From a virus, in IMG/VR virus record IMGVR_UViG_3300047476_000704, positions 64,001-128,000 of that record: a stretch of 64,000 bases of DNA, one strand, 5' to 3'. The notes beneath the pieces were generated by a model. The model saw only the letters and a list, made by a program, of their open reading frames with translations, ran no database searches and was not told where the DNA came from. A program made the translations under genes and the position numbers. This document shows, piece after piece, positions 9,646 to 64,000 of this stretch; position 1 is the first letter of the stretch, and every line of letters begins with the position of its first letter.

Positions 9646-11886
9646 TTATTGAGGTGCCCCACCTAATGCAGTAGTTGATGATTTTGCTTTTGTTGGGTCA
9701 GTTGTTGGTAGTTGTTCACCAAATCCAGTAGCTTCTAAATTAACTCCAGAACTACCCTCACCAAATAGATTAATATTTTTAATTGTTCCATCGGGGCCCA
9801 AAGTTATTGTTCCAGTACCAACTTTTTTAATAATATCAGCATTACCTAACTTTGGATTAAGATATGCCTCAACATCATTTCCATCCGTTTGTTGTTGTAG
9901 TGTTATTGTATCACCACCAGTATCAACTGATAAAAATGGACTTTCTGCTAATGAACCATTAGGAAGTAAAATTTGTGGTGATAATGCCCCTATAAGTACA
10001 TCAGGAGCTGGTTTTTGGAAACTTATACCACTTGTTGTAGATATATCAACAGATTTTATACCAGAATAAGAATTGGATTTAGATTTTATAACCTTATAAG
10101 TTACATTAATTTCACACATAAATGGTGCTTGAGAAGATTTGTGAATTTCCCAAGGAGAATTATCAGGTATACTAACATCAAAACTACTTAAAAATCCATA
10201 ATTTTCATCTATAATATTACCAATTTCCAATCCAATTATCTTTCCTTTTAATCCACCTAAACCACCACCTTGTGGTAAATTAAATGAATGAATTTTTTCT
10301 ATTTTATTCCACAATAATTGTAATTGTAAAGAATTTTTTGCATATAATTGTGCTTTGAATGATATTTCTCTTTCATATGCTTCATAAAAATAAAATTTAT
10401 AAGGAGAACCAATTGGTTTTGCTTCACCCCAAGTTACAGTTGGTGTATCAGTTAAACCAGTTAAATTTGACATTAAAAATATATCACCAATTTTTATGTT
10501 TATTAAATCAGAATCTGTGTTTAATAGTGCTTTAGTTGATAATTCAGCATGAGTTCGTACTCTTTTTTTTCCTCTAGCAGTTACAGTTGCATCATTTAAT
10601 AATCCACCCTCTTGTAACGCATCTTCACCTTTACTACCCAAAGAAGCTTTAGCAGCTTTTTCTATTTTGTCTTCCAATTCAGCATCTGTTCCTTTTAATT
10701 TAGTGGCATCATCGAAAACTTCTTGTCTATCTACAATTAAATCATATTGTATTCCAGCGGTATCTACTTTACGATTTTTGTATATTTGGTCACTAAAAAG
10801 TTTTGGTGCTTTTTTTTCTGCTATATTAGGAAATTTATATACGGGGGTAGCATCCGGTTCGTATGGATTATCTTTATATTGTACATAATCAGTAAATTGT
10901 GTACTTTCCGTATTAGATGTAATTCGTTTTTGTAAATCAGAAGTTGTATTATATATTTTATGATAACTACTAAATGATATACCATTTTGCCTACCATCCG
11001 TAGTTAATTTTAAGGTTTTTAATTCGTCTTCGGCATTTATTCCTTCATATTTTTTATAAAAATCACCACCACTTCTTAATAATTGAATTTGGCCCGTAAG
11101 TATTCCATCTATTTTATCAACAGATGCATTTTCAATTGCATATTGTGAGGGAAATTTTGGTGCCGCATTTCCTATTGTTGGATTATTTAATGGATTATTT
11201 ATTTTATTTACCGATGGATTTCCGCCACCTCTTTTAGCATTTAATCCCGCAGCACCACCAATCGCTTGTAAAGCGTTAAATCCAGCATTTACTGCTAAAT
11301 CAATAGCAGCTCCACCTATCTGAACTTTACCCGTTGGTTGTATGTTTGCTATATTTTGAGTAAATTGAGCAGGAGTTAGAAATGATGTTAATGCATTTGC
11401 TATTGAATTTTTACTATTACTTACACCACCATTATATAAGCTACCATACAAACCATTTTTTGTAGATGGGACAAACCCGGGTAAATTATTTACTTCATCG
11501 CTTGGAAATTGTGGAACTGTAAATGAGTTTAGGGCGTTTCGAACAAAACCACCAACTTTGGTATTATTACCAAATGTACCAGCCAATAAACCTCTTGAAA
11601 GTCTATCTACCCCACGCTTTGCTAATTGTAATGGTTCTACTGCTCCACGAGTTAAAATTCTAGCAGAATCGGCTCCATATATGTTAAGAACATTTTGTGC
11701 CAATTTTTGATATTGTCTATCATATGGCAAACTTACACCTTGAATATTTAAACCAAGTACTGTTACAGGTCCAGTAGTTGGACCAACTTCTTTAGAAGAT
11801 AGCATATCTGGTGTAACCTGTCTTGGATTAAACTGTGCTTCTTTAAATTGAAACTCTCCCAATAAATCTTTTAATGCCTTTGCCAT
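9646..11886 (-). CDS. Putative baseplate tail-tube initiator (gp48/gp54-like domain)
   Basis: TDTPTVTWGEAKPIGSPYKFYFYEAYEREISF tube-fold segment; follows TMP. Confidence 0.5.
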   Translation of the reverse strand: MAKALKDLLGEFQFKEAQFNPRQVTPDMLSSKEVGPTTGPVTVLGLNIQGVSLPYDRQYQKLAQNVLNIYGADSARILTRGAVEPLQLAKRGVDRLSRGLLAGTFGNNTKVGGFVRNALNSFTVPQFPSDEVNNLPGFVPSTKNGLYGSLYNGGVSNSKNSIANALTSFLTPAQFTQNIANIQPTGKVQIGGAAIDLAVNAGFNALQAIGGAAGLNAKRGGGNPSVNKINNPLNNPTIGNAAPKFPSQYAIENASVDKIDGILTGQIQLLRSGGDFYKKYEGINAEDELKTLKLTTDGRQNGISFSSYHKIYNTTSDLQKRITSNTESTQFTDYVQYKDNPYEPDATPVYKFPNIAEKKAPKLFSDQIYKNRKVDTAGIQYDLIVDRQEVFDDATKLKGTDAELEDKIEKAAKASLGSKGEDALQEGGLLNDATVTARGKKRVRTHAELSTKALLNTDSDLINIKIGDIFLMSNLTGLTDTPTVTWGEAKPIGSPYKFYFYEAYEREISFKAQLYAKNSLQLQLLWNKIEKIHSFNLPQGGGLGGLKGKIIGLEIGNIIDENYGFLSSFDVSIPDNSPWEIHKSSQAPFMCEINVTYKVIKSKSNSYSGIKSVDISTTSGISFQKPAPDVLIGALSPQILLPNGSLAESPFLSVDTGGDTITLQQQTDGNDVEAYLNPKLGNADIIKKVGTGTITLGPDGTIKNINLFGEGSSGVNLEATGFGEQLPTTDPTKAKSSTTALGGAPQ

Positions 11887-56094: not shown

Positions 56095-57741
56095 TTAGAT
56101 ATTAGCCAAACCTTCAACCAAGATTTTCCCGTAAAATTCTGGTCTCACGAGCTTCTTCGCGTAACGAGTCATAACACCTCTACGTGGAGTAAAGTTATCT
56201 GGGTCGTACACTAATGGAGTTAAAATCAATGGTACATATGGAGCGTAAACCGCACCTGTCTCAAGGAAGTTGTTTCCTTTGTAACCTAACAAGATTTCGT
56301 TAGAAGTCATGTATGGGTTTTTGTAAACAGTGTAGCGATTTGCCAATGAACCTACTTGAGTTACACCAGCTGCAAATTGTTTAGCATCTTTATCAGCGTT
56401 TACAGAGAAAGCTGGGATTGATTCTAAAATAGTACAAACGTCAGGAGAAGCAACGATAAAGTTAGCTCCACCACGCATTGTCAATTGGTGAATCTTGTTA
56501 GATACTTTGTTCAATTTAGTTCCCAAAGTCTGGAACCAAGTGTTTTTAGTGTAAGCACTTGCGTTAGATGAATCAGAATCAATTGCGAATGCTGAACCAT
56601 TCCACTCATTACCAATCTTTGTAGACCAGTATTCAGTAGTCAATGCATTTCCTTTCAATAAATCCAAGATTTCCAAGTCAATCTCTAATGAGATATATTC
56701 AGATAACATAGCAGTCAATTCAGCTTCTGCATCAATTGAGTGGTATGCGTTCAAATCTTGTGCTAATTCAGGAGTCCACACTGCTTTCAACTTACGAGTT
56801 TTAGCAACGATTGCTTCCGATTTCAATTCTAAGTCAACTTGTGGGATGTTCAAGTTAGTACCTGAAGATGGGTTAGAGATTGGGTCTCTATCTTCGAAGT
56901 CACCACGAGAAGTTGCAGTTGGTTGTACAGAGTAAACCAAACCTACAGTTGCAGAAGTTGAACCTGATGCCAATACTGATGAACTTACGATTAACGAAAC
57001 AGTTCCGTTAGAAGAGTAAGTAGTCAATGCTGGGTAGTAAGTGTTGATTGAACCAGAAGTTCCACCTTGTAATGAACCAGATACATAGAATGAACGAACT
57101 GCGTTAGTATCAGCAGATAATGCTGCTACTGAAGCAGATGCTAAAGTAATTTTGTACAAGTTACCAGCAGCCATAGATGCAGATAAAGATGTATCAAAAT
57201 TCAAATCAGACATTGCAGTAACTTTAGCTGCAGTAGCGAAAGATACGATAGCAGATTGGTCATTAACCGAATATGCATAACGACCATCGCCATAAAGACC
57301 GTTTTGAGGAGCGTTAGTTGAACCTAACTTCGCTGCTGATGTTCCACCATACAAAGATGTGCTAGATGCATCACCATATCCTTTTCCAGTTGTACCATAT
57401 TTGAAATCCATGTAGAAAATCAAACCTGATGGTAAGTTCATTGGTTGTACCGAAACAAATTCCTTTGCTGCGATTTCACCGAAGATACGGCGAACCAATG
57501 GTAAAGCTACACCAGACCATTCTTCTGAACCAGCAGAAAAACCTGTCTTTGTAGTCTCATCTAATAATTGTTTTGCTTGGTTTTCCAAGATTACAGCCAT
57601 TCCGTGCTCTTCTGTTGCACCAGCTAAACCTTCCAATAAACCAGTTTTTTCCCACTTGTTTTTCAACCCGCGAGTTTGCTCAAGCATAACCGCAGTTGGG
57701 TTTTTGCCTTCCATAAGCTTGTTTAAATCAAATTGTGCCAT
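56095..57741 (-). CDS. Major capsid protein (T4 gp23-like)
   Basis: KWEKTGLLEGL, LPLVRR, VQPMNLPSGLIF, KTRKLKAVWTPELAQDL, YAPYVPL, GVMTRYAK. Confidence 0.97.
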   Translation of the reverse strand: MAQFDLNKLMEGKNPTAVMLEQTRGLKNKWEKTGLLEGLAGATEEHGMAVILENQAKQLLDETTKTGFSAGSEEWSGVALPLVRRIFGEIAAKEFVSVQPMNLPSGLIFYMDFKYGTTGKGYGDASSTSLYGGTSAAKLGSTNAPQNGLYGDGRYAYSVNDQSAIVSFATAAKVTAMSDLNFDTSLSASMAAGNLYKITLASASVAALSADTNAVRSFYVSGSLQGGTSGSINTYYPALTTYSSNGTVSLIVSSSVLASGSTSATVGLVYSVQPTATSRGDFEDRDPISNPSSGTNLNIPQVDLELKSEAIVAKTRKLKAVWTPELAQDLNAYHSIDAEAELTAMLSEYISLEIDLEILDLLKGNALTTEYWSTKIGNEWNGSAFAIDSDSSNASAYTKNTWFQTLGTKLNKVSNKIHQLTMRGGANFIVASPDVCTILESIPAFSVNADKDAKQFAAGVTQVGSLANRYTVYKNPYMTSNEILLGYKGNNFLETGAVYAPYVPLILTPLVYDPDNFTPRRGVMTRYAKKLVRPEFYGKILVEGLANI

Positions 57742-57761: not shown

Positions 57762-58895
57762 TTATTTAATTAGTCCTGCCAATTTTTTGAATCTATCAGA
57801 GTAAGCAGAATTTTCGCTGATGATTTGTTTTTTAACACCTGTACTTTTTTGTGGTTTAGAAGCTCCTTCTGTGATTCTTTTTACAGATTCTACTTTCTTA
57901 ACACTTCCACCCATTTTCATAGATTCGGCGATTGTTGAGTAAACCAATTTAACTTCACGAATTGTTCCAGTTCTATCGAATGAATCAATAACTTTAGATT
58001 TTTGTTCGTTAGTTAAGTTGTATCCTCTAAATAATTTGTTAGAATATAAAAGTTTAGCGTTCAACAAGTTAATCTCATTGATTGTAGACTTCAAAGTTTT
58101 GATTACAGAAATTGCTTGTGCTAATTCATTTTTCAATGATTTTGCTTCTGCCACTGCTGCTTTCTCTTCTTCTTCTGCTGCTTCTTCATCTTCTAATTCT
58201 TTGATGATTGCTTCGATGTTTAATTCTTCTTCGCCATCTTCTTCTTCTTCCATTGAATCTTCTTCTTCATCTTCTTCGGAGATTGATGAATCTGAATCGT
58301 CAGCGTTCATGTAAGTATCAACATCATCTGCATCCTCTTCCATTTCTTCTTCCTCTTCTTCTTCCATTTTCTCTGCGCCCAATTCGTCTTCTAATTCACG
58401 AATGATAGCTTCTAAATCTAAATCATCGTCAGATGGTGCATCCATTTCGTCTTCACCTTCTTCCATTTCATCTTCGCCATATTCACCTTCTTCCATTTCC
58501 ATTTCGTCTTCACCTTCTTCCATTTCCTCTTCCTCTTCTTCTGTGATTGATTTAGCGAAATCATAATCTTCAACCTCATCCTCTGGCTTACCAGAAGTTT
58601 TAGTTACGTCTGCTGCACCCAACTCATCTTCATCAGCTGCTGAATCTAATGTTGGTTGTGCACCACCCCCAATGTTAGAAGAACCTAATTCTTCTTCCAT
58701 TTTCTCTTCTTCTTCTTCCTCATGCATTTCATCAGCTTCCATATCTTCAGCTTCTGCACGCAATTTTTGAGAAAGAATGTTCTTCAAACGAGGAGTAAAT
58801 GCTTCCTCTAATTGAAGTTTTGCGTTTGCTAATGCAGTTTCTCTAACAGCTTTAGCATCGGCGATTGCTTCTTTTAACAATTTTGAACTTGCCAT
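57762..58895 (-). CDS. Prohead core scaffolding protein (gp22-like)
   Basis: Highly acidic repeats plus C-terminal coiled coil (EINLLNAKLLYSNKLF...EVKLVY); directly upstream of MCP. Confidence 0.88.
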   Translation of the reverse strand: MASSKLLKEAIADAKAVRETALANAKLQLEEAFTPRLKNILSQKLRAEAEDMEADEMHEEEEEEKMEEELGSSNIGGGAQPTLDSAADEDELGAADVTKTSGKPEDEVEDYDFAKSITEEEEEEMEEGEDEMEMEEGEYGEDEMEEGEDEMDAPSDDDLDLEAIIRELEDELGAEKMEEEEEEEMEEDADDVDTYMNADDSDSSISEEDEEEDSMEEEEDGEEELNIEAIIKELEDEEAAEEEEKAAVAEAKSLKNELAQAISVIKTLKSTINEINLLNAKLLYSNKLFRGYNLTNEQKSKVIDSFDRTGTIREVKLVYSTIAESMKMGGSVKKVESVKRITEGASKPQKSTGVKKQIISENSAYSDRFKKLAGLIK

Positions 58896-59062: not shown

Positions 59063-59305
59063 TTATTTGTATAAACTACGGAATTTTTTTGGAATTTCTT
59101 TTAATTTTTTACCTCTGTAAAGGTCTTTTTGCTGAATTAGTTGTTTTCTTTCAGCTTTTTCCATCATTTCTCTTTTAGTAACCGATGGTTTTGTAAATTG
59201 TTGTCTATCTCTTAATTCTTTAACAACACCAATTGCATCAAACTTTTTCTTTAATTTTTTTAATGCTCCAGCAATATTGCCGTCTTTTACTTCAATGTTA
59301 ATCAT
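59063..59305 (-). CDS. rpsU: Phage-encoded ribosomal protein bS21
   Basis: I.VKDG.I..ALKKLKKKF...GVVKELRDRQQFTKPSVTKR. Confidence 0.92.
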   Translation of the reverse strand: MINIEVKDGNIAGALKKLKKKFDAIGVVKELRDRQQFTKPSVTKREMMEKAERKQLIQQKDLYRGKKLKEIPKKFRSLYK

Positions 59306-59310
59306 AACTT

Positions 59311-59847
59311 TTACTTTTGTTCTACTTTTGTATATCTTTGATTTGTATCGTTTTGGATTCTTTTCTTTGTTGATTTTACTTTATCATAAGATGGAGCACC
59401 ATTGATATATCCACCAGGTAATGATAAACCTACACCAGCTCCACCTGGAAATCCATCTTCCGAAACTACACCCTCCAATCTACCAGTCTTTTTTATTTGG
59501 TCTAATTTAGATAGTGTATCGTTTTTAATTTTAGTATATCTACGAACTTCATTATCGTTTGTAGCTTTTTTTATTTGATTAGTAACCCATTGTAATTGCT
59601 TCATCAATTCTTTCTTCATAGATTCCGCACTTTCTTTAACTACGGATTCAGAGCAACCTATTGCATTATAGAATTTACTATAATCAAATTTGATTCCTTC
59701 ATCTTTGAATTGTCTTACCATATTATCGGCAATAGATTTACGATTTTCTACATCTAATACTTGATTTAGAATATCAATAATTCCGTCTACCATTTCGTAT
59801 TCGTTATTATCTAACTTTTCGTTTAATATAGTTTTTAACTTTATCAT
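59311..59847 (-). CDS. Putative internal head protein (MIKL leader)
   Basis: Starts MIKLKTILNE; internal VVKES and VVSED motifs. Confidence 0.65.
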   Translation of the reverse strand: MIKLKTILNEKLDNNEYEMVDGIIDILNQVLDVENRKSIADNMVRQFKDEGIKFDYSKFYNAIGCSESVVKESAESMKKELMKQLQWVTNQIKKATNDNEVRRYTKIKNDTLSKLDQIKKTGRLEGVVSEDGFPGGAGVGLSLPGGYINGAPSYDKVKSTKKRIQNDTNQRYTKVEQK

Positions 59848-60245
59848 TATCCTATTTTATTTAAATCCTTTAATATAGAATTTACTTCACTATTACTAAA
59901 ATTATGTTCCGATGCTATTTGTGACCTAGTTATATTTTTCCATATGGGATTTCCGTTTACATTTATATCAGATAGTATATCGTTTTTACTTCTACATCCG
60001 TTATAATCGCAATATTTACCATTATACAAAATACAAACGTGAACCATTGCTTTTGTTTCAGGTTCAATTACAGCTACATATTTACCTTTATTTCCTAAAT
60101 ATTTATTTAATGCATCGGCAAATGTATAACACCCACCACTCATATACCAATCTGTCCAATTGGTATCCTTTCTATATTGCTCTAAAACATCATCTAAATC
60201 TGATATAGATTTTACACCCTCTACCAAATCCTTTAACTTTATCAT
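59847..60245 (-). CDS. Putative internal head protein, papain/transglutaminase-like triad
   Basis: Starts MIKLKDLVE; GGC...VHV...CDYNG. Confidence 0.6.
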   Translation of the reverse strand: MIKLKDLVEGVKSISDLDDVLEQYRKDTNWTDWYMSGGCYTFADALNKYLGNKGKYVAVIEPETKAMVHVCILYNGKYCDYNGCRSKNDILSDINVNGNPIWKNITRSQIASEHNFSNSEVNSILKDLNKIG

Positions 60246-60667
60246 TATAGTTTCTTTAATAAACTATCCATATCAATTTCAAATGCGTAACCTGCTCCAC
60301 TATGTCTCTTATCTACAATGACTTTCAATCCTAATTTCTTTTCCAAATGTTGTTTTAATAATTCTAAAAAATCAGCATCTCCACCTTTACCCATTCCCTT
60401 TTTAGATAATGTATATTGAGTAGCGTTTCCACCTAACTTTTGTTTTATTAAATCAATACCATCTACATCTTTCATTGAGCTAGGAACTAAAATAATTTTA
60501 CCATCTTTTGATGTTGGTGTAAATTTTACATTTCCAGACCAATGTGGGAACTCAAAGCCGGTACTTTCTTTTATTTGCGATTTGAATGCAGTATGATATG
60601 GATTAGAATAAACAACTCCTTGTTCAAACTTACCATGTCCTTTGACTAAATCCGTTAATTTTATCAT
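60245..60667 (-). CDS. Putative internal head protein (MIKL leader)
   Basis: Starts MIKLTDLVKG; QIKES downstream. Confidence 0.6.
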   Translation of the reverse strand: MIKLTDLVKGHGKFEQGVVYSNPYHTAFKSQIKESTGFEFPHWSGNVKFTPTSKDGKIILVPSSMKDVDGIDLIKQKLGGNATQYTLSKKGMGKGGDADFLELLKQHLEKKLGLKVIVDKRHSGAGYAFEIDMDSLLKKL

Positions 60668-61176
60668 TAGTTAATATAGCAGTTAAGTTCGTATCCGTTT
60701 TTCATTCCATATACCTGAATGTGTAATTGTTTGTTTGATGGTTTTCCACCTTTGGTTAATTCAACTGAAACTTTAACAGTCTTTCCTTCCGATGGTTTAC
60801 GAGGTCCCATTCCTATCTTTCTAAATGAGTCATCATCATCTACCATATACCCTTTCTTCAAAGCGTATTCTTTTGCAGTTTGTATTGCTTCCGTATATGA
60901 TTTGTGATATACCTTCAAATCGTTTGCTTCGTTTACCGATTCACCTCTCAATTTTCCTAAATGATTGATAGCTTGCTTTTCGTTCTTCTTAAAGTAATCT
61001 TCAACTTCTTTTTTTGTATCAAATGATAATTGACCTTTACCCTTTGTAACATCATCTACCCAAAATGAATCAGAATCTCTATCAAATTCGTAGTATCCTA
61101 CAAGTTTGCCGTTTGATAATACCTTACCATCTTTAGCAACTACACTTTCGTTTAATAAATCGCTTAACTTTATCAT
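60667..61176 (-). CDS. Putative internal head protein (MIKL leader)
   Basis: Start moved to MIKLSDLLNES (ATG at 61176); two domains joined by ESVNE. Confidence 0.62.
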   Translation of the reverse strand: MIKLSDLLNESVVAKDGKVLSNGKLVGYYEFDRDSDSFWVDDVTKGKGQLSFDTKKEVEDYFKKNEKQAINHLGKLRGESVNEANDLKVYHKSYTEAIQTAKEYALKKGYMVDDDDSFRKIGMGPRKPSEGKTVKVSVELTKGGKPSNKQLHIQVYGMKNGYELNCYIN

Positions 61177-61180
61177 CTTA

Positions 61181-61906
61181 TTATTTACTAATCTTAAAAA
61201 ATTTATTAAACTCATCTCGCATTACATCCGCCTGGTCTTGCTTTGTATGGTTTTGTTTTATAATAAGCTCCAAACCTTTTTTCATTTCAGGTACATTATT
61301 ACTATATTTTTGCTTTAACATTCTAAAAATGTTTTTAGCTTGAATACGAGTGTTTGCCCACTCATCATATTCGTTTATGTTTTCATCCGTTTCTTTACCT
61401 GCTCTTAAATCTGCTAAATCATCTGCTCCAATATCACCATCTTTATCAACATCCAATTTGTGTTGATTACCAACTAAATCTTCACTACGAATACCCAATC
61501 TTTGGTTTACTTCTTCTTCACTCAATTCACTAACACCATAGTATCTACCTATAATATGTCCCATATCTTCGTATAGGTTTTCCATTTGTGAATGTAATGA
61601 TTTTGCTTCGTTTGCAATCTTTTCAAATTGAGCAGATAATTTACCCAATTCATTCATATTGCGTTTTACAGTTGCTTCGTCAAAGTGATTACCAGCTTCT
61701 TTATTAGCAAACTCACTAGCTGCATCTGTAATTGCACCCAATGTTTCAGCAATTTGTGCTAAATCATTTTCATTCTTTAACTTTGGTCCAAATGAACCAT
61801 AAGTAGAAATGATTTCTAAAAAGTGTCTTCTTGCTTCGTTGCTTAAAGTTTGTTTAGGTGCCTTTTTATCTTCACCTTCTCCTAATAATTTCTTTAACTT
61901 TATCAT
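61181..61906 (-). CDS. Putative internal head protein (MIKL leader) with EF-hand-like loop
   Basis: Start moved to MIKLKKLLGE (ATG at 61906); DVDKDGDIGADD. Confidence 0.62.
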   Translation of the reverse strand: MIKLKKLLGEGEDKKAPKQTLSNEARRHFLEIISTYGSFGPKLKNENDLAQIAETLGAITDAASEFANKEAGNHFDEATVKRNMNELGKLSAQFEKIANEAKSLHSQMENLYEDMGHIIGRYYGVSELSEEEVNQRLGIRSEDLVGNQHKLDVDKDGDIGADDLADLRAGKETDENINEYDEWANTRIQAKNIFRMLKQKYSNNVPEMKKGLELIIKQNHTKQDQADVMRDEFNKFFKISK

Positions 61907-61907
61907 C

Positions 61908-62132
61908 TTATTTTGCTTCAAATTGTTCTATAAGTTTGATTGCCATATCAATATGCTTTATTGCTTCTTTACTATAAGGTGCAATGTTGTGCTTAACCTC
62001 TTTCAATCTATCTAATGATTTTTCACGAGTCATTGCGTGCATTGCTGCTTCTAACAATTCTCTTCTTTGCTGTTCATCCGATTTGGCTTTAATCTTATTA
62101 GAAGCCATATATTTTGTTATATCAAATGCCAT
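61908..62132 (-). CDS. Small hypothetical protein
   Basis: MAFDITKYM..NKI; follows the protease. Confidence 0.6.
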   Translation of the reverse strand: MAFDITKYMASNKIKAKSDEQQRRELLEAAMHAMTREKSLDRLKEVKHNIAPYSKEAIKHIDMAIKLIEQFEAK

Positions 62133-62139
62133 ATTTTTA

Positions 62140-62724
62140 TTAGTTTAATTCTTCTATTATTTGCATCATTAAATCTTGTGCTTTACACCACTTACCACAC
62201 TCTTCAATTTCTCTTTTAACACTTTCATTCATAGCAGTTGGAGACATAAATGCTCCATGTGTAGATGGGTTAGATACAAAATCCCAACCAATTAGTTCAA
62301 AATCTTCTTGTACCATTACAGTATTCTCTCTCATAGGTTTAACTGAACCCATGCCTCTACTGCTAATACCCAAACGGATATTGTGTTTGAATAATTCTTT
62401 TAAGATGTTACCAGATGGAGTTGAAAGAACTTCTACTGTCCCACATAAGTCTTTACCATCCCACCAAATTTCTTTGATGTTGTGTGATACATTCTTTAAG
62501 TTAATAACAGTTGAATCTGGATGGTCTAACTCACCCAATGCTCTACGCTCTTGTATTAGTGTTTCGTATTTCTTTGCTTCCCTTTGTAATATATTATAAG
62601 GATAGATACGATGATTTTGGTTAGGAGCGTCCGCGCGTTGCAATACACCTTTAACCAAAAATTTGCCATTTGCATCTTCCTGTATAGTTCCTTCAAAAAG
62701 GTTATGTTCTATTAATAATCCCAT
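62140..62724 (-). CDS. Prohead core protein protease (T4 gp21-like)
   Basis: NQNHRIYP, ALGELDHP, VSHNI, LGISSRGMGS, WDFVSNPSTHGA. Confidence 0.95.
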   Translation of the reverse strand: MGLLIEHNLFEGTIQEDANGKFLVKGVLQRADAPNQNHRIYPYNILQREAKKYETLIQERRALGELDHPDSTVINLKNVSHNIKEIWWDGKDLCGTVEVLSTPSGNILKELFKHNIRLGISSRGMGSVKPMRENTVMVQEDFELIGWDFVSNPSTHGAFMSPTAMNESVKREIEECGKWCKAQDLMMQIIEELN

Positions 62725-62727
62725 ATC

Positions 62728-63603
62728 TTATGCTAATAAATGATAATACTCTCTAAAATGTTTCTGTCTGTCAGCCAAACCAATTGTACCGCCATTTACT
62801 CTTTTTGTAATCTTTGTTACTACTGCATCAGAACTACCTTCATCTGCTATTTTGTTCAATCCGTTTTTAGAGAAGAACCAAGCTGCTGATAATAATGCGT
62901 ATGCTCCAGCTACTTTATCTGGATTTGCTACCATATCTTCACCGATAGATTTACCAAATGCAGTATAGTTTTCTTTACCTGTCAATTGGATATATCCTCT
63001 ACCTCTGAATTTGTATCCCTCACGAGATGCTTCGTTTCCGTTACCCATTCTACTTGCATATACTCTACTTGCAATAAGTTCTGGCTTTCTTTCGTATTGT
63101 TGTGCTAATGCTACTGTTGGAAAGTATTTCTTAAATATACCCAACAAACCTTTTGCTGAATAGTTTAGATTTTCTTGTGTTGCTCTAAATCCACCACTTT
63201 CGTGTCCACATTGTGCTAAAAAGTGTGCTAATCTTAAAGGTGTGTTGATGTTAAACTTTGCAGCCGTATCAGGAATCATTGCTATTACATTAGCAGGAAT
63301 GTGTCCTTTTAATTTATCTAACTTTAAGCCAGGATACGATGCTAATGCCGGAGTAGGTGCTACAACAGGTGCAGGAGTTGGTGCAGGTGTTGGTTGTGCT
63401 ACTGGTTTAGGAACTACGGTAATACCCATAATCTTATTCCAAGTATTAGGTCCAACTATACCATCAGCTGCTAAACCATTTTTGGCTTGCCATGCTTTTA
63501 CTGCATCTTCTGTTTTTGGTCCAAAATTACCAACTGGGTCTAATCCCAATTTAACCTGTAATTTCTTTACATCTTCGTTATTATCACCCCTTTTTAACAA
63601 CAT
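62728..63603 (-). CDS. Endolysin: peptidoglycan-binding domain + GH19 glycoside hydrolase
   Basis: LKRGD...DGIVGPNTW; RLAHFLAQCGHESGGF, RGRGYIQLTGKENY, KRVNGGTIGLADR. Confidence 0.92.
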   Translation of the reverse strand: MLLKRGDNNEDVKKLQVKLGLDPVGNFGPKTEDAVKAWQAKNGLAADGIVGPNTWNKIMGITVVPKPVAQPTPAPTPAPVVAPTPALASYPGLKLDKLKGHIPANVIAMIPDTAAKFNINTPLRLAHFLAQCGHESGGFRATQENLNYSAKGLLGIFKKYFPTVALAQQYERKPELIASRVYASRMGNGNEASREGYKFRGRGYIQLTGKENYTAFGKSIGEDMVANPDKVAGAYALLSAAWFFSKNGLNKIADEGSSDAVVTKITKRVNGGTIGLADRQKHFREYYHLLA

Positions 63604-63605
63604 AA

Positions 63606-64000
63606 TTATTTTCCCTCACTTTTAGCTTTCCAAGCTGCATCTACTTTATTAAAAAATGCTTTCTTTTCATCATCACTCATAGATGGAATAGATTTACCAG
63701 CTTTATCCAATACTTTTTGGAAAAACTTTTGGTATTCTGCTTCCTCTTGCATTACTTCTCTTACGATTGATTTTAATGCTTCTCTCTTTAATGATTTTTG
63801 CTTACCCATAGTTTGTGGTAACCCATTTGCTACATTTTCAATATCTTCGCTGATTTTATATTTCATTCCCAAATGCCCTTTACCCATATCTTTTACATTA
63901 AACTTTTGGTGAAATGTAGATTGTTGTGCTGCTTTTGGTGTAATATCTAAAATCCAATCATTACCATCTTTTGATAAATAGTATGCATTTTTATCACCAG
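63606..64000 (-). CDS. Hypothetical protein (5' end off window)
   Basis: The frame of the 63606..63887 ORF stays open to the window edge (GDKNAYYLSKDGNDW...); contains LKSIVREVMQEE. Confidence 0.7.
   Translation of the reverse strand, partial: GDKNAYYLSKDGNDWILDITPKAAQQSTFHQKFNVKDMGKGHLGMKYKISEDIENVANGLPQTMGKQKSLKREALKSIVREVMQEEAEYQKFFQKVLDKAGKSIPSMSDDEKKAFFNKVDAAWKAKSEGK

What the first reader, a model, noticed from the sequence alone, without database searches (positions are those of the whole stretch)
59311..61906. Five unrelated cargo genes share a capsid-targeting-like leader (MIKL.x.LLxE)
Seen: five consecutive genes between the gp21 protease and bS21/scaffold start MIKLKTILNE, MIKLKDLVE, MIKLTDLVKG, MIKLSDLLNE and MIKLKKLLGE, then diverge completely. 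The DNA start ATGATAAA(G/A)TTAA is shared and three use TAATG stop/start coupling. Established: T4 internal proteins carry a 10-aa capsid targeting sequence removed by gp21 after (I/L)-x-E, and are injected with the DNA. Inference: this is a portable address tag that lets the phage load interchangeable cargo domains into the head for ejection into the host.
Basis: partly seen in the sequence, partly recalled or inferred. Interest (0 to 1): 0.8.

Follow-up and report, generated by a model that had tools for sequence, protein, structure and literature searches.

The report
Shared head-loading tag on phage proteins
A 195-kb lake phage of Bacteroidota starts at least seven otherwise unrelated proteins with the same 10-residue tag (MIKLKDLLxE), which has the layout of phage T4's "load into the head, then cut off" signal; this marks a large, easily searched set of proteins that the phage probably carries in its head, though packaging and cutting have not been measured.

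Summary
Five consecutive minus-strand genes (window 61906-59311) lie between a gp21-type S77 prohead protease and bS21, scaffold and gp23-type capsid genes. All start MIKL..L; their remainders share no similarity.

The tag is conserved in the 80 protease-related IMG/VR loci I inspected and in two cultured phages. It sits on at least 53 cargo families. Its near-invariant positions (L4, L/I7, aliphatic 8, E10) are the ones shown in T4 to drive capsid targeting (4, 7) and gp21 cutting (8, 10).

Longer tagged proteins are chains of modules joined by S-[VIL]-x-E. The same mature domain starts right after that E, whether the E ends the N-terminal tag or an internal linker (49 of 50 junctions).

Gene and module gains and losses break exactly at these motifs. 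The C4 gene is flanked by a 16-nt direct repeat.

Best reading (about 0.65): a T4-CTS-like capsid-targeting propeptide plus protease-cut cargo polyproteins. Packaging, cutting and ejection are inferred, not shown. The principle is known from T-even phages, so this is a new variant.

Earlier AI notes of this scan describe the same tag (e1-3862018) and the same linker (e1-5702602) on other DNA.

The parts
62140..62724 (-). gp21-type prohead protease (194 aa), the presumed enzyme that removes the tag and cuts the linkers
   Evidence: Pfam PF03420 Peptidase_S77 2.3e-26; PHROG 207 head maturation protease 1.9e-48. It is 31% identical to T4 gp21, E 3e-26, and keeps the LGEL(D/N)HP and (I/V)SSRG(M/L)GS motifs.
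61908..62132 (-). 74-aa ORF between the protease and C1; conserved only in the closest relatives; role unknown
   Evidence: No Pfam or PHROG hit. Orthologues of 82-93% identity lie at the same position in L003-L011.
61181..61906 (-). C1: tag (61877-61906), then a conserved helical core domain (to about aa 140), then a lineage-specific C-terminal part with an EF-hand-like loop
   Evidence: A C1-like gene with the tag follows the protease in nearly every related locus that extends far enough. In relatives its C-terminus carries different extra modules behind ES[VI]xE linkers.
60667..61176 (-). C2: tag (61147-61176), module A, S-V-N-E linker (60928-60939), then module B (about aa 84-169)
   Evidence: Module B starts right after ...SVNE. 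In relatives it is a stand-alone gene of tag plus module B, or is fused behind C1 or other modules.
60245..60667 (-). C3: tag variant MIKLTDLVKG (no E10), then a 130-aa domain
   Evidence: Orthologues are 43-60% identical. In L004 and L150 the same domain is fused behind module A of C2.
59847..60245 (-). C4: 9-residue tag variant MIKLKDLVE, then a YunG-like domain; a cassette absent from the closest relatives
   Evidence: Weak Pfam hit to PF24591, 3.8e-5, below the cut-off. There is no homologue in the 80 protease-anchored loci. Most of its 18 database homologues carry the tag or a close variant of it.
60232..60247 (-). 16-nt repeat TAATGATAAAGTTAAA, left boundary of the C4 cassette
   Evidence: Locus L003 has one copy joining the C3 end directly to C5. 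The window has two copies with C4 between them.
59834..59849 (-). 16-nt repeat TAATGATAAAGTTAAA, right boundary of the C4 cassette
59311..59847 (-). C5: tag (59818-59847), N-module, ...VVKE, a 58-aa inserted module (59458-59631) ending ...VVSE, then the C-module DGFPGG...
   Evidence: The L003 orthologue reads ...SMVKE directly followed by DGFPGG. The window copy has an extra module that starts after that E and ends with its own V-S-E.
59063..59305 (-). Phage bS21 gene (context; it marks the downstream end of the array)
   Evidence: PF01165 9.5e-15; at the same position in the related loci.
57762..58895 (-). Acidic scaffold protein; its N-terminus MASSKLLKE resembles the end of the tag
   Evidence: It has 21 [LIVM]-x-E motifs in 377 aa against a genome mean of 1.68 per 100 aa. 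The start MA(S/N)SKLLKEA is conserved in most related loci.
56095..57741 (-). gp23-type major capsid protein; the first 62 residues (57556-57741) look like a protease-degraded delta region
   Evidence: Pfam Gp23 2.9e-77. It is 35% identical to T4 gp23 over a 232-residue local alignment. There are 5 [LIVM]-x-E in aa 1-62 (8.1 per 100) against 3 in the other 486 aa (0.62 per 100).
9646..11886 (-). 746-aa protein starting MAKALKDLLGE, a possible further tag variant (uncertain)
   Evidence: Found in the N-terminal [LI]-x-E census; no Pfam or PHROG hit.

Best explanation
The 10-residue start M-I-K-L-x-x-[LI]-[LIMV]-x-E is most likely a capsid-targeting propeptide of the T4 CTS type. While the prohead assembles, the tag would bind the scaffolding core and so bring the attached protein inside the shell. 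The phage's gp21-type S77 protease would then cut after Glu10. It would also cut after each internal S-[VIL]-x-E linker of the multi-module proteins. The mature modules would then lie free in the DNA-filled head. By analogy with T4 internal proteins they would leave with the DNA at infection.

Shown here: the tag, its conservation and its portability; the linker pattern with identical mature N-termini; gene and module gains and losses that break at these motifs; and T4-type protease, scaffold and capsid genes beside the array.

Inferred: binding to the core, cleavage, retention in the head, ejection, and what the cargo does. One tagged protein has a Pnkp-like HAD phosphatase fold; most cargo families have no known relatives. 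C1, which is universal in the clade, may be a structural core component rather than cargo.
For: 1. Position. The array lies between the S77 protease and bS21, scaffold and gp23-type capsid genes.

2. Conservation. Taking one tag per cargo family (53 families), the counts are M53, I51, K50, L52, x, x, L/I 51, aliphatic 53, x, E52. DNA conservation starts at the ATG and ends at codon 10.

3. Match to T4. T4 ipII and ipIII start MKTYQEFIAE. In T4 the first 10 residues suffice; residues 4 and 7 carry targeting and residues 8 and 10 carry processing (PMC9026906). These are the conserved hydrophobic, aliphatic and Glu positions here.

4. Portability. In protease-related loci, 1 to 5 tagged genes of varying content follow the protease. 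A DNA-pattern scan raised the total to 208 distinct tagged ORFs in 53 families.

5. Cleavage pattern. Among 120 module-B proteins, 57 of 59 stand-alone forms carry the tag directly. In fused forms, 49 of 50 distinct junctions have E at the same distance from the domain. P3 is V 26, I 13, L 8, F 1, M 1. P1' is Ala in 45 of 49. The HAD-like cargo shows the same pattern behind three kinds of propeptide.

6. Protease substrates. [LIVM]-x-E is 13 times denser in capsid protein aa 1-62 than in the rest of that protein, and is enriched in the scaffold.

7. Placement. Complete tags are almost never internal: 1 regex match in 307,268 aa, plus one degenerate copy in P0148. This fits one N-terminal address plus cut-only linkers.

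8. Disorder. In the AlphaFold2 model of the HAD-like protein, residues 1-7 have pLDDT below 50 and the fold starts at residue 11.
Against: There are no virion proteomics, no cleavage assay and no packaging data for this phage or any relative; I found none for phage immuto and no paper at all on Mel-JY01.

The tag resembles the T4 CTS in pattern only: just M1 and E10 are identical.

C3 lacks Glu10, and C4-family tags have the Glu at position 9 or have degenerated.

Two of the seven tagged genes in this genome, and many in relatives, lie outside the head module. T4's ip genes do too.

Codons 2-4 are conserved at synonymous sites: ATA 64 of 68 Ile codons and AAG 69 of 73 Lys codons, against genome usage of 36-48% and 25%. 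Some selection or copying therefore acts on the DNA or mRNA, not only on the peptide.

S-V-x-E-type motifs are not enriched in this genome as a whole.
Confidence: 0.65

Rival explanations
1. The tagged proteins are assembly-only core or scaffold parts. On this reading the tag and linkers are protease sites of proteins that help build the prohead core. They are then degraded and expelled, as T4 gp22, gp67 and gp68 are. Nothing is retained or delivered.
For: C1 is universal in the clade, helical, acidic (pI 5.2) and sits beside the protease like a core gene. The scaffold N-terminus MASSKLLKE resembles the tag. Scaffold and capsid delta region are rich in the same motif.
Against: Most tagged families are variable, sporadic and often singletons (33 of 53), which is not how essential assembly parts behave. 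They include a folded enzyme-like domain of the HAD/Pnkp phosphatase type and a compact alpha/beta module with pLDDT 86. Five of the seven mature parts in this genome are basic, pI 8.9-9.5. By my recollection, not checked here, T4's DNA-bound internal proteins are basic too.
Confidence: 0.15
2. The tag is a gene-start cassette acting on DNA or mRNA. On this reading the shared ATGATAAAGTTAAA serves translation start or re-start (TAATG coupling in a host without Shine-Dalgarno pairing) or recombination. The encoded peptide has no sorting role.
For: Synonymous sites of codons 2-4 are far more uniform than codon usage predicts. Three junctions are TAATG overlaps. The 16-nt repeat bounds the C4 gain or loss.
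Against: Positions 7, 8 and 10 are conserved as amino-acid classes with varying codons (TTA, TTG, ATG, ATA; GAA, GAG), and conservation stops exactly at Glu10. The most abundant late genes (capsid, scaffold) do not use the cassette. Internal linkers share the P3/P1 rule and give the same mature N-termini. An mRNA start signal does not explain either point.
Confidence: 0.07
3. The tag is a recognition sequence for some other partner. Candidates are a modifying enzyme, the phage's own GroEL, or a host system. One tag would then serve many substrates, as RiPP leader peptides do.
For: The two distal tagged genes lie next to the phage GroEL gene.
Against: In the protease-anchored loci the tagged genes lie immediately downstream of the S77 protease. 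I saw no conserved modifying enzyme beside the array. The tag ends in the protease motif, and the linkers repeat it.
Confidence: 0.05
4. The genes are diverged tandem paralogues, and the shared start is just the slowest-evolving remnant of one duplicated gene.
For: The arrangement is tandem. Mel-JY01 has three true paralogues with the tag.
Against: The cargo parts have different lengths and predicted folds and no pairwise similarity. The same domains occur with other propeptides. Conservation is a sharp 30-nt block, not a gradient.
Confidence: 0.03

Closest known systems
Phage T4 capsid targeting sequence (CTS) on internal proteins IPII and IPIII (MKTYQEFIAE), with related propeptides on IPI and Alt, removed by gp21
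   Same: Both are 10-residue N-terminal tags on otherwise unrelated proteins. Both have hydrophobic residues at 4, 7 and 8, an acidic residue at 6, and Glu10 in an aliphatic-x-Glu protease site. Both genomes encode a gp21-family protease, a gp22-like scaffold and a gp23-family capsid protein. In both, the tag DNA is near-identical between genes: T4 ipII and ipIII share 30 of 30 nt.
   Different: Only M1 and E10 are identical in sequence. T4 has three IPs plus Alt; here there are at least 7 tagged genes in one genome and at least 53 cargo families in the lineage. Five of them form a tandem array inside the head module. Many are multi-module chains with cut-type linkers. No experiment exists for this lineage.
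Polymorphic internal-protein loci of T-even phages (Repoila 1994; Comeau 2007; as cited in PMC3012670, PMC9026906 and PMC2839356)
   Same: Both are hypervariable loci in which only the CTS is conserved and the cargo is swapped between close relatives. T-evens have more than 30 IP variants, thought to be injected defence or adaptation proteins.
   Different: In T-evens the swapping is ascribed to promoter and stem-loop cassettes near the genes (PMC2839356). Here the break points fall inside the tag and linker coding sequences themselves: the 16-nt repeat around C4, and module insertions bounded by h-x-E codons.
Head and inner-body proteins of phiKZ, 201phi2-1 and SPN3US, cut by gp21-related proteases after Glu
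   Same: Many head and ejection proteins are processed after Glu at short motifs. Propeptides are thought to target the proteins to the prohead, and several cuts occur per protein (PMC9026906).
   Different: By my recollection those phages prefer small residues (S, A or G) at P3; the paper passage I read says only that determinants other than the Glu are few. Here P3 is aliphatic in 49 of 49 junctions and 53 of 53 tags, which is T4-like. Those phages have no single shared 10-residue tag.
Encapsulin cargo-loading peptides (functional analogy only, from my own knowledge)
   Same: A short portable peptide directs unrelated cargo proteins into an HK97-fold shell.
   Different: Those peptides are usually C-terminal, are not cut off, bind the shell protein rather than a scaffold core, and no delivery to another cell is involved.

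Membership tests
T4-type CTS / internal-protein system | A short N-terminal propeptide shared by proteins that are otherwise unrelated | tested here: met
   Seven genes in this genome share 6.7 of 10 tag residues, and their remainders have BLASTP E of 0.2 or worse. There are 53 cargo families in the lineage.
T4-type CTS / internal-protein system | The propeptide ends in the gp21 site, aliphatic-x-Glu | tested here: met
   E10 in 52 of 53 family tags and an aliphatic residue at position 8 in 53 of 53. In this window C3 lacks E10 and C4 has E9.
T4-type CTS / internal-protein system | The genome encodes a gp21-family prohead protease with a T4-type scaffold and gp23 capsid protein | tested here: met
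   PF03420 2.3e-26 and 31% identity to T4 gp21; Gp23 2.9e-77; acidic scaffold.
T4-type CTS / internal-protein system | The positions that matter in T4 (4 and 7 for targeting, 8 and 10 for processing) are the constrained ones | tested here: met
   L4 52 of 53, L/I7 51 of 53, aliphatic 8 53 of 53, E10 52 of 53; positions 5, 6 and 9 vary. T4 mapping from PMC9026906. This tests conservation, not function.
T4-type CTS / internal-protein system | Sequence homology of the tag to the T4 CTS | tested here: inconclusive
   Same length and same hydrophobic/acidic pattern, but only M1 and E10 are identical. Ten residues are too few to tell descent from convergence.
T4-type CTS / internal-protein system | The tag is removed by the protease during head maturation | not testable with these tools
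   Support is indirect only: identical mature domain starts follow the E of the tag or of a linker.
T4-type CTS / internal-protein system | The proteins are present in mature heads and are ejected with the DNA | not testable with these tools
   I found no proteomic or infection data for this lineage.
phiKZ-type inner-body / ejection proteins | Cleavage motif with a small residue (S, A or G) at P3 before Glu (motif from my own knowledge) | tested here: not met
   P3 is V, I, L, F or M in 49 of 49 junctions and aliphatic in 53 of 53 tags.
Sec / Tat / lipoprotein signal peptides | A hydrophobic core of about 7 or more residues after a basic N-region, or a lipobox or twin-arginine motif | tested here: not met
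   Read directly from the sequences. The tag is 10 residues with about four charged ones (K3, K5, D6, E10) and is followed by polar residues. There is no hydrophobic run, lipobox or RR motif. No predictor was run.

The most novel reading that the evidence does not exclude
The tag and linkers may form a plug-and-play loading platform. Their near-identical DNA (the 16-30-nt tag and the 15-nt GAATCAGTAAACGAA-type linker) would act as in-frame recombination joints. Any module dropped between two of them would then be expressed, addressed to the prohead, cut free and delivered. On this reading the 50-plus tagged families, including a Pnkp-like phosphatase, are the lineage's injected first-minute arsenal against host defences, and can be listed from sequence alone.
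Probability: 0.3. Interest if true: 0.8.

Novelty: new variant of a known kind. Interest (0 to 1): 0.6.

Why it matters
Proteins that phages carry in the head and inject with the DNA act before any phage gene is expressed. In T4 one of them (IPI*) blocks a restriction enzyme. They are hard to find because they share nothing but a tag, and that tag is known experimentally only for T-even coliphages.

If this tag works as in T4, a 10-residue pattern would identify dozens of candidate injected proteins in abundant freshwater Bacteroidota phages. It would also give a rule for where the mature proteins begin.

The module chains suggest that one address can load several proteins at fixed ratios. The break points suggest how such cargo is exchanged in frame.

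Two cultured phages that carry the tag make the idea directly testable.

Tried and rejected
1. I asked whether tag and linker share a GTTAA(C) DNA site that a nuclease might use. Rejected: the linkers are coded GTAAAC, not GTTAAC.

2. I compared the C1 core with T4 gp68 by profile-profile alignment. No match: probability 0.5%, E 0.13.

3. I searched for the fold of module B. Foldseek against the PDB gave a best E of 0.1, and VIA-align against 48,161 chains gave a best Z of 4.7. Nothing is convincing, so its function stays open.

4. Sequence searches of C4 and the HAD-like protein against PDB chains found nothing significant.

5. The protein Atlas search for C1 returned only unnamed viral clusters.

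6. ESV.E is not enriched in this genome as a whole: 2 observed, about 1 expected. The enrichment holds only within tagged and head-module proteins of the lineage, about 4-fold.

7. A raw k-mer enrichment was swamped by the C1 family and was dropped.

8. The head modules of immuto and Mel-JY01 have no MIKL genes. A whole-record scan then found tagged genes elsewhere in both.

9. Repoila 1994 (PMC395341) is not held, so I cite it only through reviews.

10. No paper containing the tag strings in a phage context was found.

Caveats:
- Loci L086 and higher were retrieved with a DNA pattern that contains the tag. The family census is therefore biased toward that codon choice, and the codon test is valid only on the protease-anchored loci.
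- ORFs were called mechanically, so a few singleton 'families' (for example in L121 and L173) are probably spurious.
- Families were built by single linkage, which chained C1, C2 and C3 through fused forms.
Full report
**What is there**

The window is bases 64001-128000 of a single 194,856-bp contig with 33% G+C. Almost all genes are on the minus strand: 217 of 222 mechanically called ORFs. Read in the direction of transcription, the stretch contains:
- a PG_binding_1 + GH19 lysin-like gene (63603-62728)
- a gp21-type S77 prohead protease (62724-62140)
- a 74-aa ORF (62132-61908)
- the five genes C1 to C5 (61906-59311)
- a bS21 gene (59305-59063)
- an acidic scaffold gene (58895-57762)
- a gp23-type major capsid gene (57741-56095)

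These assignments rest. The protease is 31% identical to T4 gp21 (E 3e-26). The capsid protein is 35% identical to T4 gp23 over a 232-residue local alignment. The nearest named phages are Flavobacterium phage vB_FspM_immuto and 'Microcystis' phage Mel-JY01, with capsid identity of about 50-52%. This is therefore a distant T4-type myovirus, probably of Bacteroidota.

C1 to C5 start MIKLKKLLGE, MIKLSDLLNE, MIKLTDLVKG, MIKLKDLVEG and MIKLKTILNE. ATGATAAARTTAA occurs five times in the window against 0.08 expected. Three junctions are TAATG overlaps. Beyond residue 10 the proteins have no detectable similarity to each other (best E 0.2), while the tags share 6.7 of 10 residues.

The whole genome holds two more such genes far away, next to a phage GroEL gene. 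One is at genome 5751-4948 (267 aa, MIKLKNLLNE). The other is at 4951-4421 (176 aa, MIKLKDLLVE).

Looser variants also exist. MNGNIKLRNIVKE starts a 356-aa DUF5872 protein between terminase and portal. MAKALKDLLGE starts a 746-aa protein at window 9646-11886. Two other ORFs begin MIKL. One is a KdsC-like HAD protein and the other is of unknown function; neither continues with the motif, so I count them as chance.

**The tag is a lineage-wide, portable element**

A search with the protease gave 80 IMG/VR loci of 72-98% identity. In the loci that reach far enough downstream, the order protease, tagged genes, bS21, scaffold (MA[SN]SKLLKEA in most), capsid recurs. The number of tagged genes varies from one to five and so does their content. 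A C1-like gene is almost always present. C4 is found in none.

With those loci there are 316 tagged ORFs, 208 distinct, in 53 cargo families, 33 of them singletons. Of the 193 complete ORFs, the median length is 141 aa and 80% are 200 aa or shorter.

Taking one tag per family gives M53, I51, K50, L52, x, x, L/I 51, aliphatic 53, x, E52. At the DNA level conservation begins at the ATG and ends at codon 10; the upstream sequence is not conserved.

The tag also occurs in the cultured relatives, outside their head modules. Mel-JY01 has four copies, one a remnant with stop codons, next to its gp41 helicase gene. Immuto has one (immuto35A_41).

In relatives, tagged genes cluster at several places: the head and packaging module, the thymidylate-synthase/GroEL region, and others. 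The tag is thus not confined to the head module. The same is true of T4's ip genes.

**Comparison with T4, using the T4 record and the literature**

T4 ipII and ipIII both start MKTYQEFIAE, coded by 30 identical nucleotides. ipI starts MKTFKEF....

The review PMC9026906 reports three things. The first 10 residues of IPIII suffice for incorporation into the head. Targeting depends mainly on residues 4 and 7, and processing on residues 8 and 10. The authors also suggest the CTS may be a general way for T4-like phages to load varied proteins.

[quoted passage not shown] PMC2839356 counts more than 30 variants at two variable loci.

The MIKL tag has the same length. It has hydrophobic residues at 4, 7 and 8, an acidic residue at 6 and Glu at 10. 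Its most constrained positions after MIK are exactly 4, 7, 8 and 10. What is new is this lineage, its scale and its architecture.

**Evidence that Glu10 is a processing point**

This is the strongest new result. C2 consists of the tag, a module A, the linker ...GESVNE, and a module B.

Module B belongs to a family of over 400 database proteins. I analysed the 120 listed:
- In 59 proteins, module B follows the N-terminus directly, and 57 of these carry the tag.
- In 60 proteins it is fused behind other sequence.
- Among 50 distinct junctions of the fused forms, 49 have a Glu at the same distance from the domain.
- P3 at those junctions is V 26, I 13, L 8, F 1, M 1. P1' is Ala in 45 of 49. P4 is mostly Ser.

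The same mature sequence therefore begins after ...LLSE of a tag, ...SVNE of a linker, or ...TVTE of a fusion to C1.

The HAD-like protein repeats the pattern in a family of 1,395 database proteins. Its first strand, KKLRVFDFDDTLV, follows one of three things: the 10-residue tag, a different propeptide of about 45 residues ending P-[MLI]-x-E, or a degenerate internal tag copy.

Long tagged proteins are chains with four or five ESV[NK]E linkers; examples are L055 (579 aa) and L125 (444 aa). The motif ES[VL][NK]E is about four times denser in tagged proteins than in other ORFs of the same loci. Many of the 'other' hits lie in proteins encoded just upstream of the protease.

Complete tags are almost never internal: 1 regex match in 307,268 aa, plus the degenerate copy noted above. 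This fits one N-terminal address plus cut-only linkers.

The presumed natural substrates agree. The capsid protein has five [LIVM]-x-E in residues 1-62 (8.1 per 100 aa) and three in the remaining 486 (0.62 per 100 aa). The genome mean is 1.68. The scaffold has 21 in 377 aa.

**Exchange happens at the motifs**

Against close relatives (protease 89-98% identical) the flanks are collinear at about 84-94% DNA identity. The array is a patchwork, and short matches of about 40 bp occur between non-orthologous tags.

Three examples show the pattern:
- L003 joins the end of C3 directly to C5 through one copy of TAATGATAAAGTTAAA. The window has that 16-mer twice, with C4 between the copies.
- C5 differs from its L003 orthologue by a 58-residue module. 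It is inserted right after ...VKE and ends in its own ...VSE.
- Modules are fused differently in relatives. L006 has the C1 core plus module B. L004 and L150 have module A plus the C3 domain.

Synonymous sites are unusually uniform. Codon 2 is ATA in 64 of 68 Ile codons and codon 3 is AAG in 69 of 73 Lys codons. Genome usage is 36-48% and 25%. Counted by family in protease-anchored loci only, AAG is 6 of 7 (p = 0.0013).

Linkers are mostly coded GAATC(A/G)GTAAACGAA. AAC is used in 8 of 10 Asn codons against 30% in the genome.

I read this as copying of tag and linker DNA by recombination, as with T4's identical ipII and ipIII tags. Selection on the mRNA start is not excluded.

**What the cargo is**

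Mostly this is unknown.
- C4 has a sub-threshold YunG-like hit. Most of its 18 homologues keep the tag or a close variant, often a 9-residue form.
- Module B folds with confidence (pLDDT 85.6) into a small alpha/beta domain with no convincing PDB relative.
- The distal 176-aa protein is an HAD-type DxDxT phosphatase. It hits PF11019 (borderline) and PHROG 415 'polynucleotide kinase' at 4.4e-6. Its model (pLDDT 82) best matches the T4 Pnkp 3'-phosphatase domain, but weakly (Foldseek E 2.4e-3, TM 0.42). Tag residues 1-7 are disordered and the fold starts at residue 11.
- Five of the seven mature parts are basic.
- C1 has a conserved helical core of about 125 residues. It shows no match to T4 gp68. 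Its C-terminal additions vary by lineage, and here include an EF-hand-like loop.

**Verdict**

The tag is real and is conserved across the lineage and the two cultured relatives. It is portable and has the layout of a T4-type capsid-targeting and cleavage propeptide. The linker pattern and the break points add a 'beads on a string' architecture that I have not found described.

Packaging, cleavage and ejection remain inferences. I found no paper on this tag. Chen et al. 2022 on related bS21 phages do not mention it.

Earlier AI notes of this scan report the same tag (e1-3862018) and the same ESVNE-type polyproteins (e1-5702602, e1-5826867) on other DNA. I did not check those notes and do not count them as evidence.

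Noticed in passing
whole genome (G000), window included: There is extreme avoidance of palindromic sites. GATC occurs 0 times against about 675 expected from a Markov model. GAATTC is 0 against 46, GATATC 0 against 66, and CTATAG 0 against 36. GTTAAC occurs once against about 67 expected from base composition. This suggests strong selection against several restriction systems, or a methylation-related constraint.
   Followed up: partly
genome 4421-4951 (L083:4421-4951, minus strand), outside the window: A tagged 176-aa HAD/DxDxT phosphatase lies next to a phage GroEL gene. Its nearest relatives are the T4 Pnkp 3'-phosphatase domain (Foldseek, weak) and PHROG 415. Its family has 1,395 database members, which carry three different propeptide types that all end in h-x-E.
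   Followed up: yes
window 61412-61450 (C1, about aa 153-165): The sequence DVDKDGDIGADDL looks like a canonical EF-hand calcium-binding loop. It lies in the lineage-specific C-terminal part of C1. Relatives carry instead a PCW.GY...VPNCVP motif and Cys/His-rich tails.
   Followed up: no
window 62728-63603: A PG_binding_1 + GH19 (chitinase-class lysozyme) gene sits directly upstream of the prohead protease, inside the head module, and is conserved there in the closer relatives. It may be the endolysin or a virion-carried wall hydrolase.
   Followed up: no
window 63606-64000 and beyond (genome 127606-128382): The ORF that runs off the window end is a 258-aa protein (MRHLQKSG...). Its orthologues carry ESVNE linkers. 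Its C-terminal module is a separate gene with its own tag-like start (MKLNQLKELV...) in more distant relatives.
   Followed up: partly
genome 131610-132680 (L084:3610-4680), outside the window: A 356-aa DUF5872 protein between terminase and portal starts MNGNIKLRNIVKE, that is, the tag with three extra residues. Six of about 60 orthologues match the tag pattern outright.
   Followed up: partly
loci L033-L082 (more distant relatives): A second tag form, M(A)KL[IV]NL[IV]P.KE, heads small 83-99-aa proteins beside the protease. A conserved untagged 123-aa protein (MEQLASLLLH...) also sits in the array.
   Followed up: partly
L207 (Mel-JY01 record 60276-63100): Three paralogous tagged genes (MIKL...E followed by ISDRVWH...) and one remnant with stop codons lie next to the gp41 helicase gene, about 35 kb from the head module. 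The 'Microcystis' phage is close in its capsid gene to Flavobacterium phages.
   Followed up: partly
genome 135646-139641 and 9344-10594, outside the window: The 1331-aa nucleotidyltransferase chain (start ...LVETFLLTE) and a 416-aa protein with ...SESVNE may also be protease-cut head proteins.
   Followed up: partly
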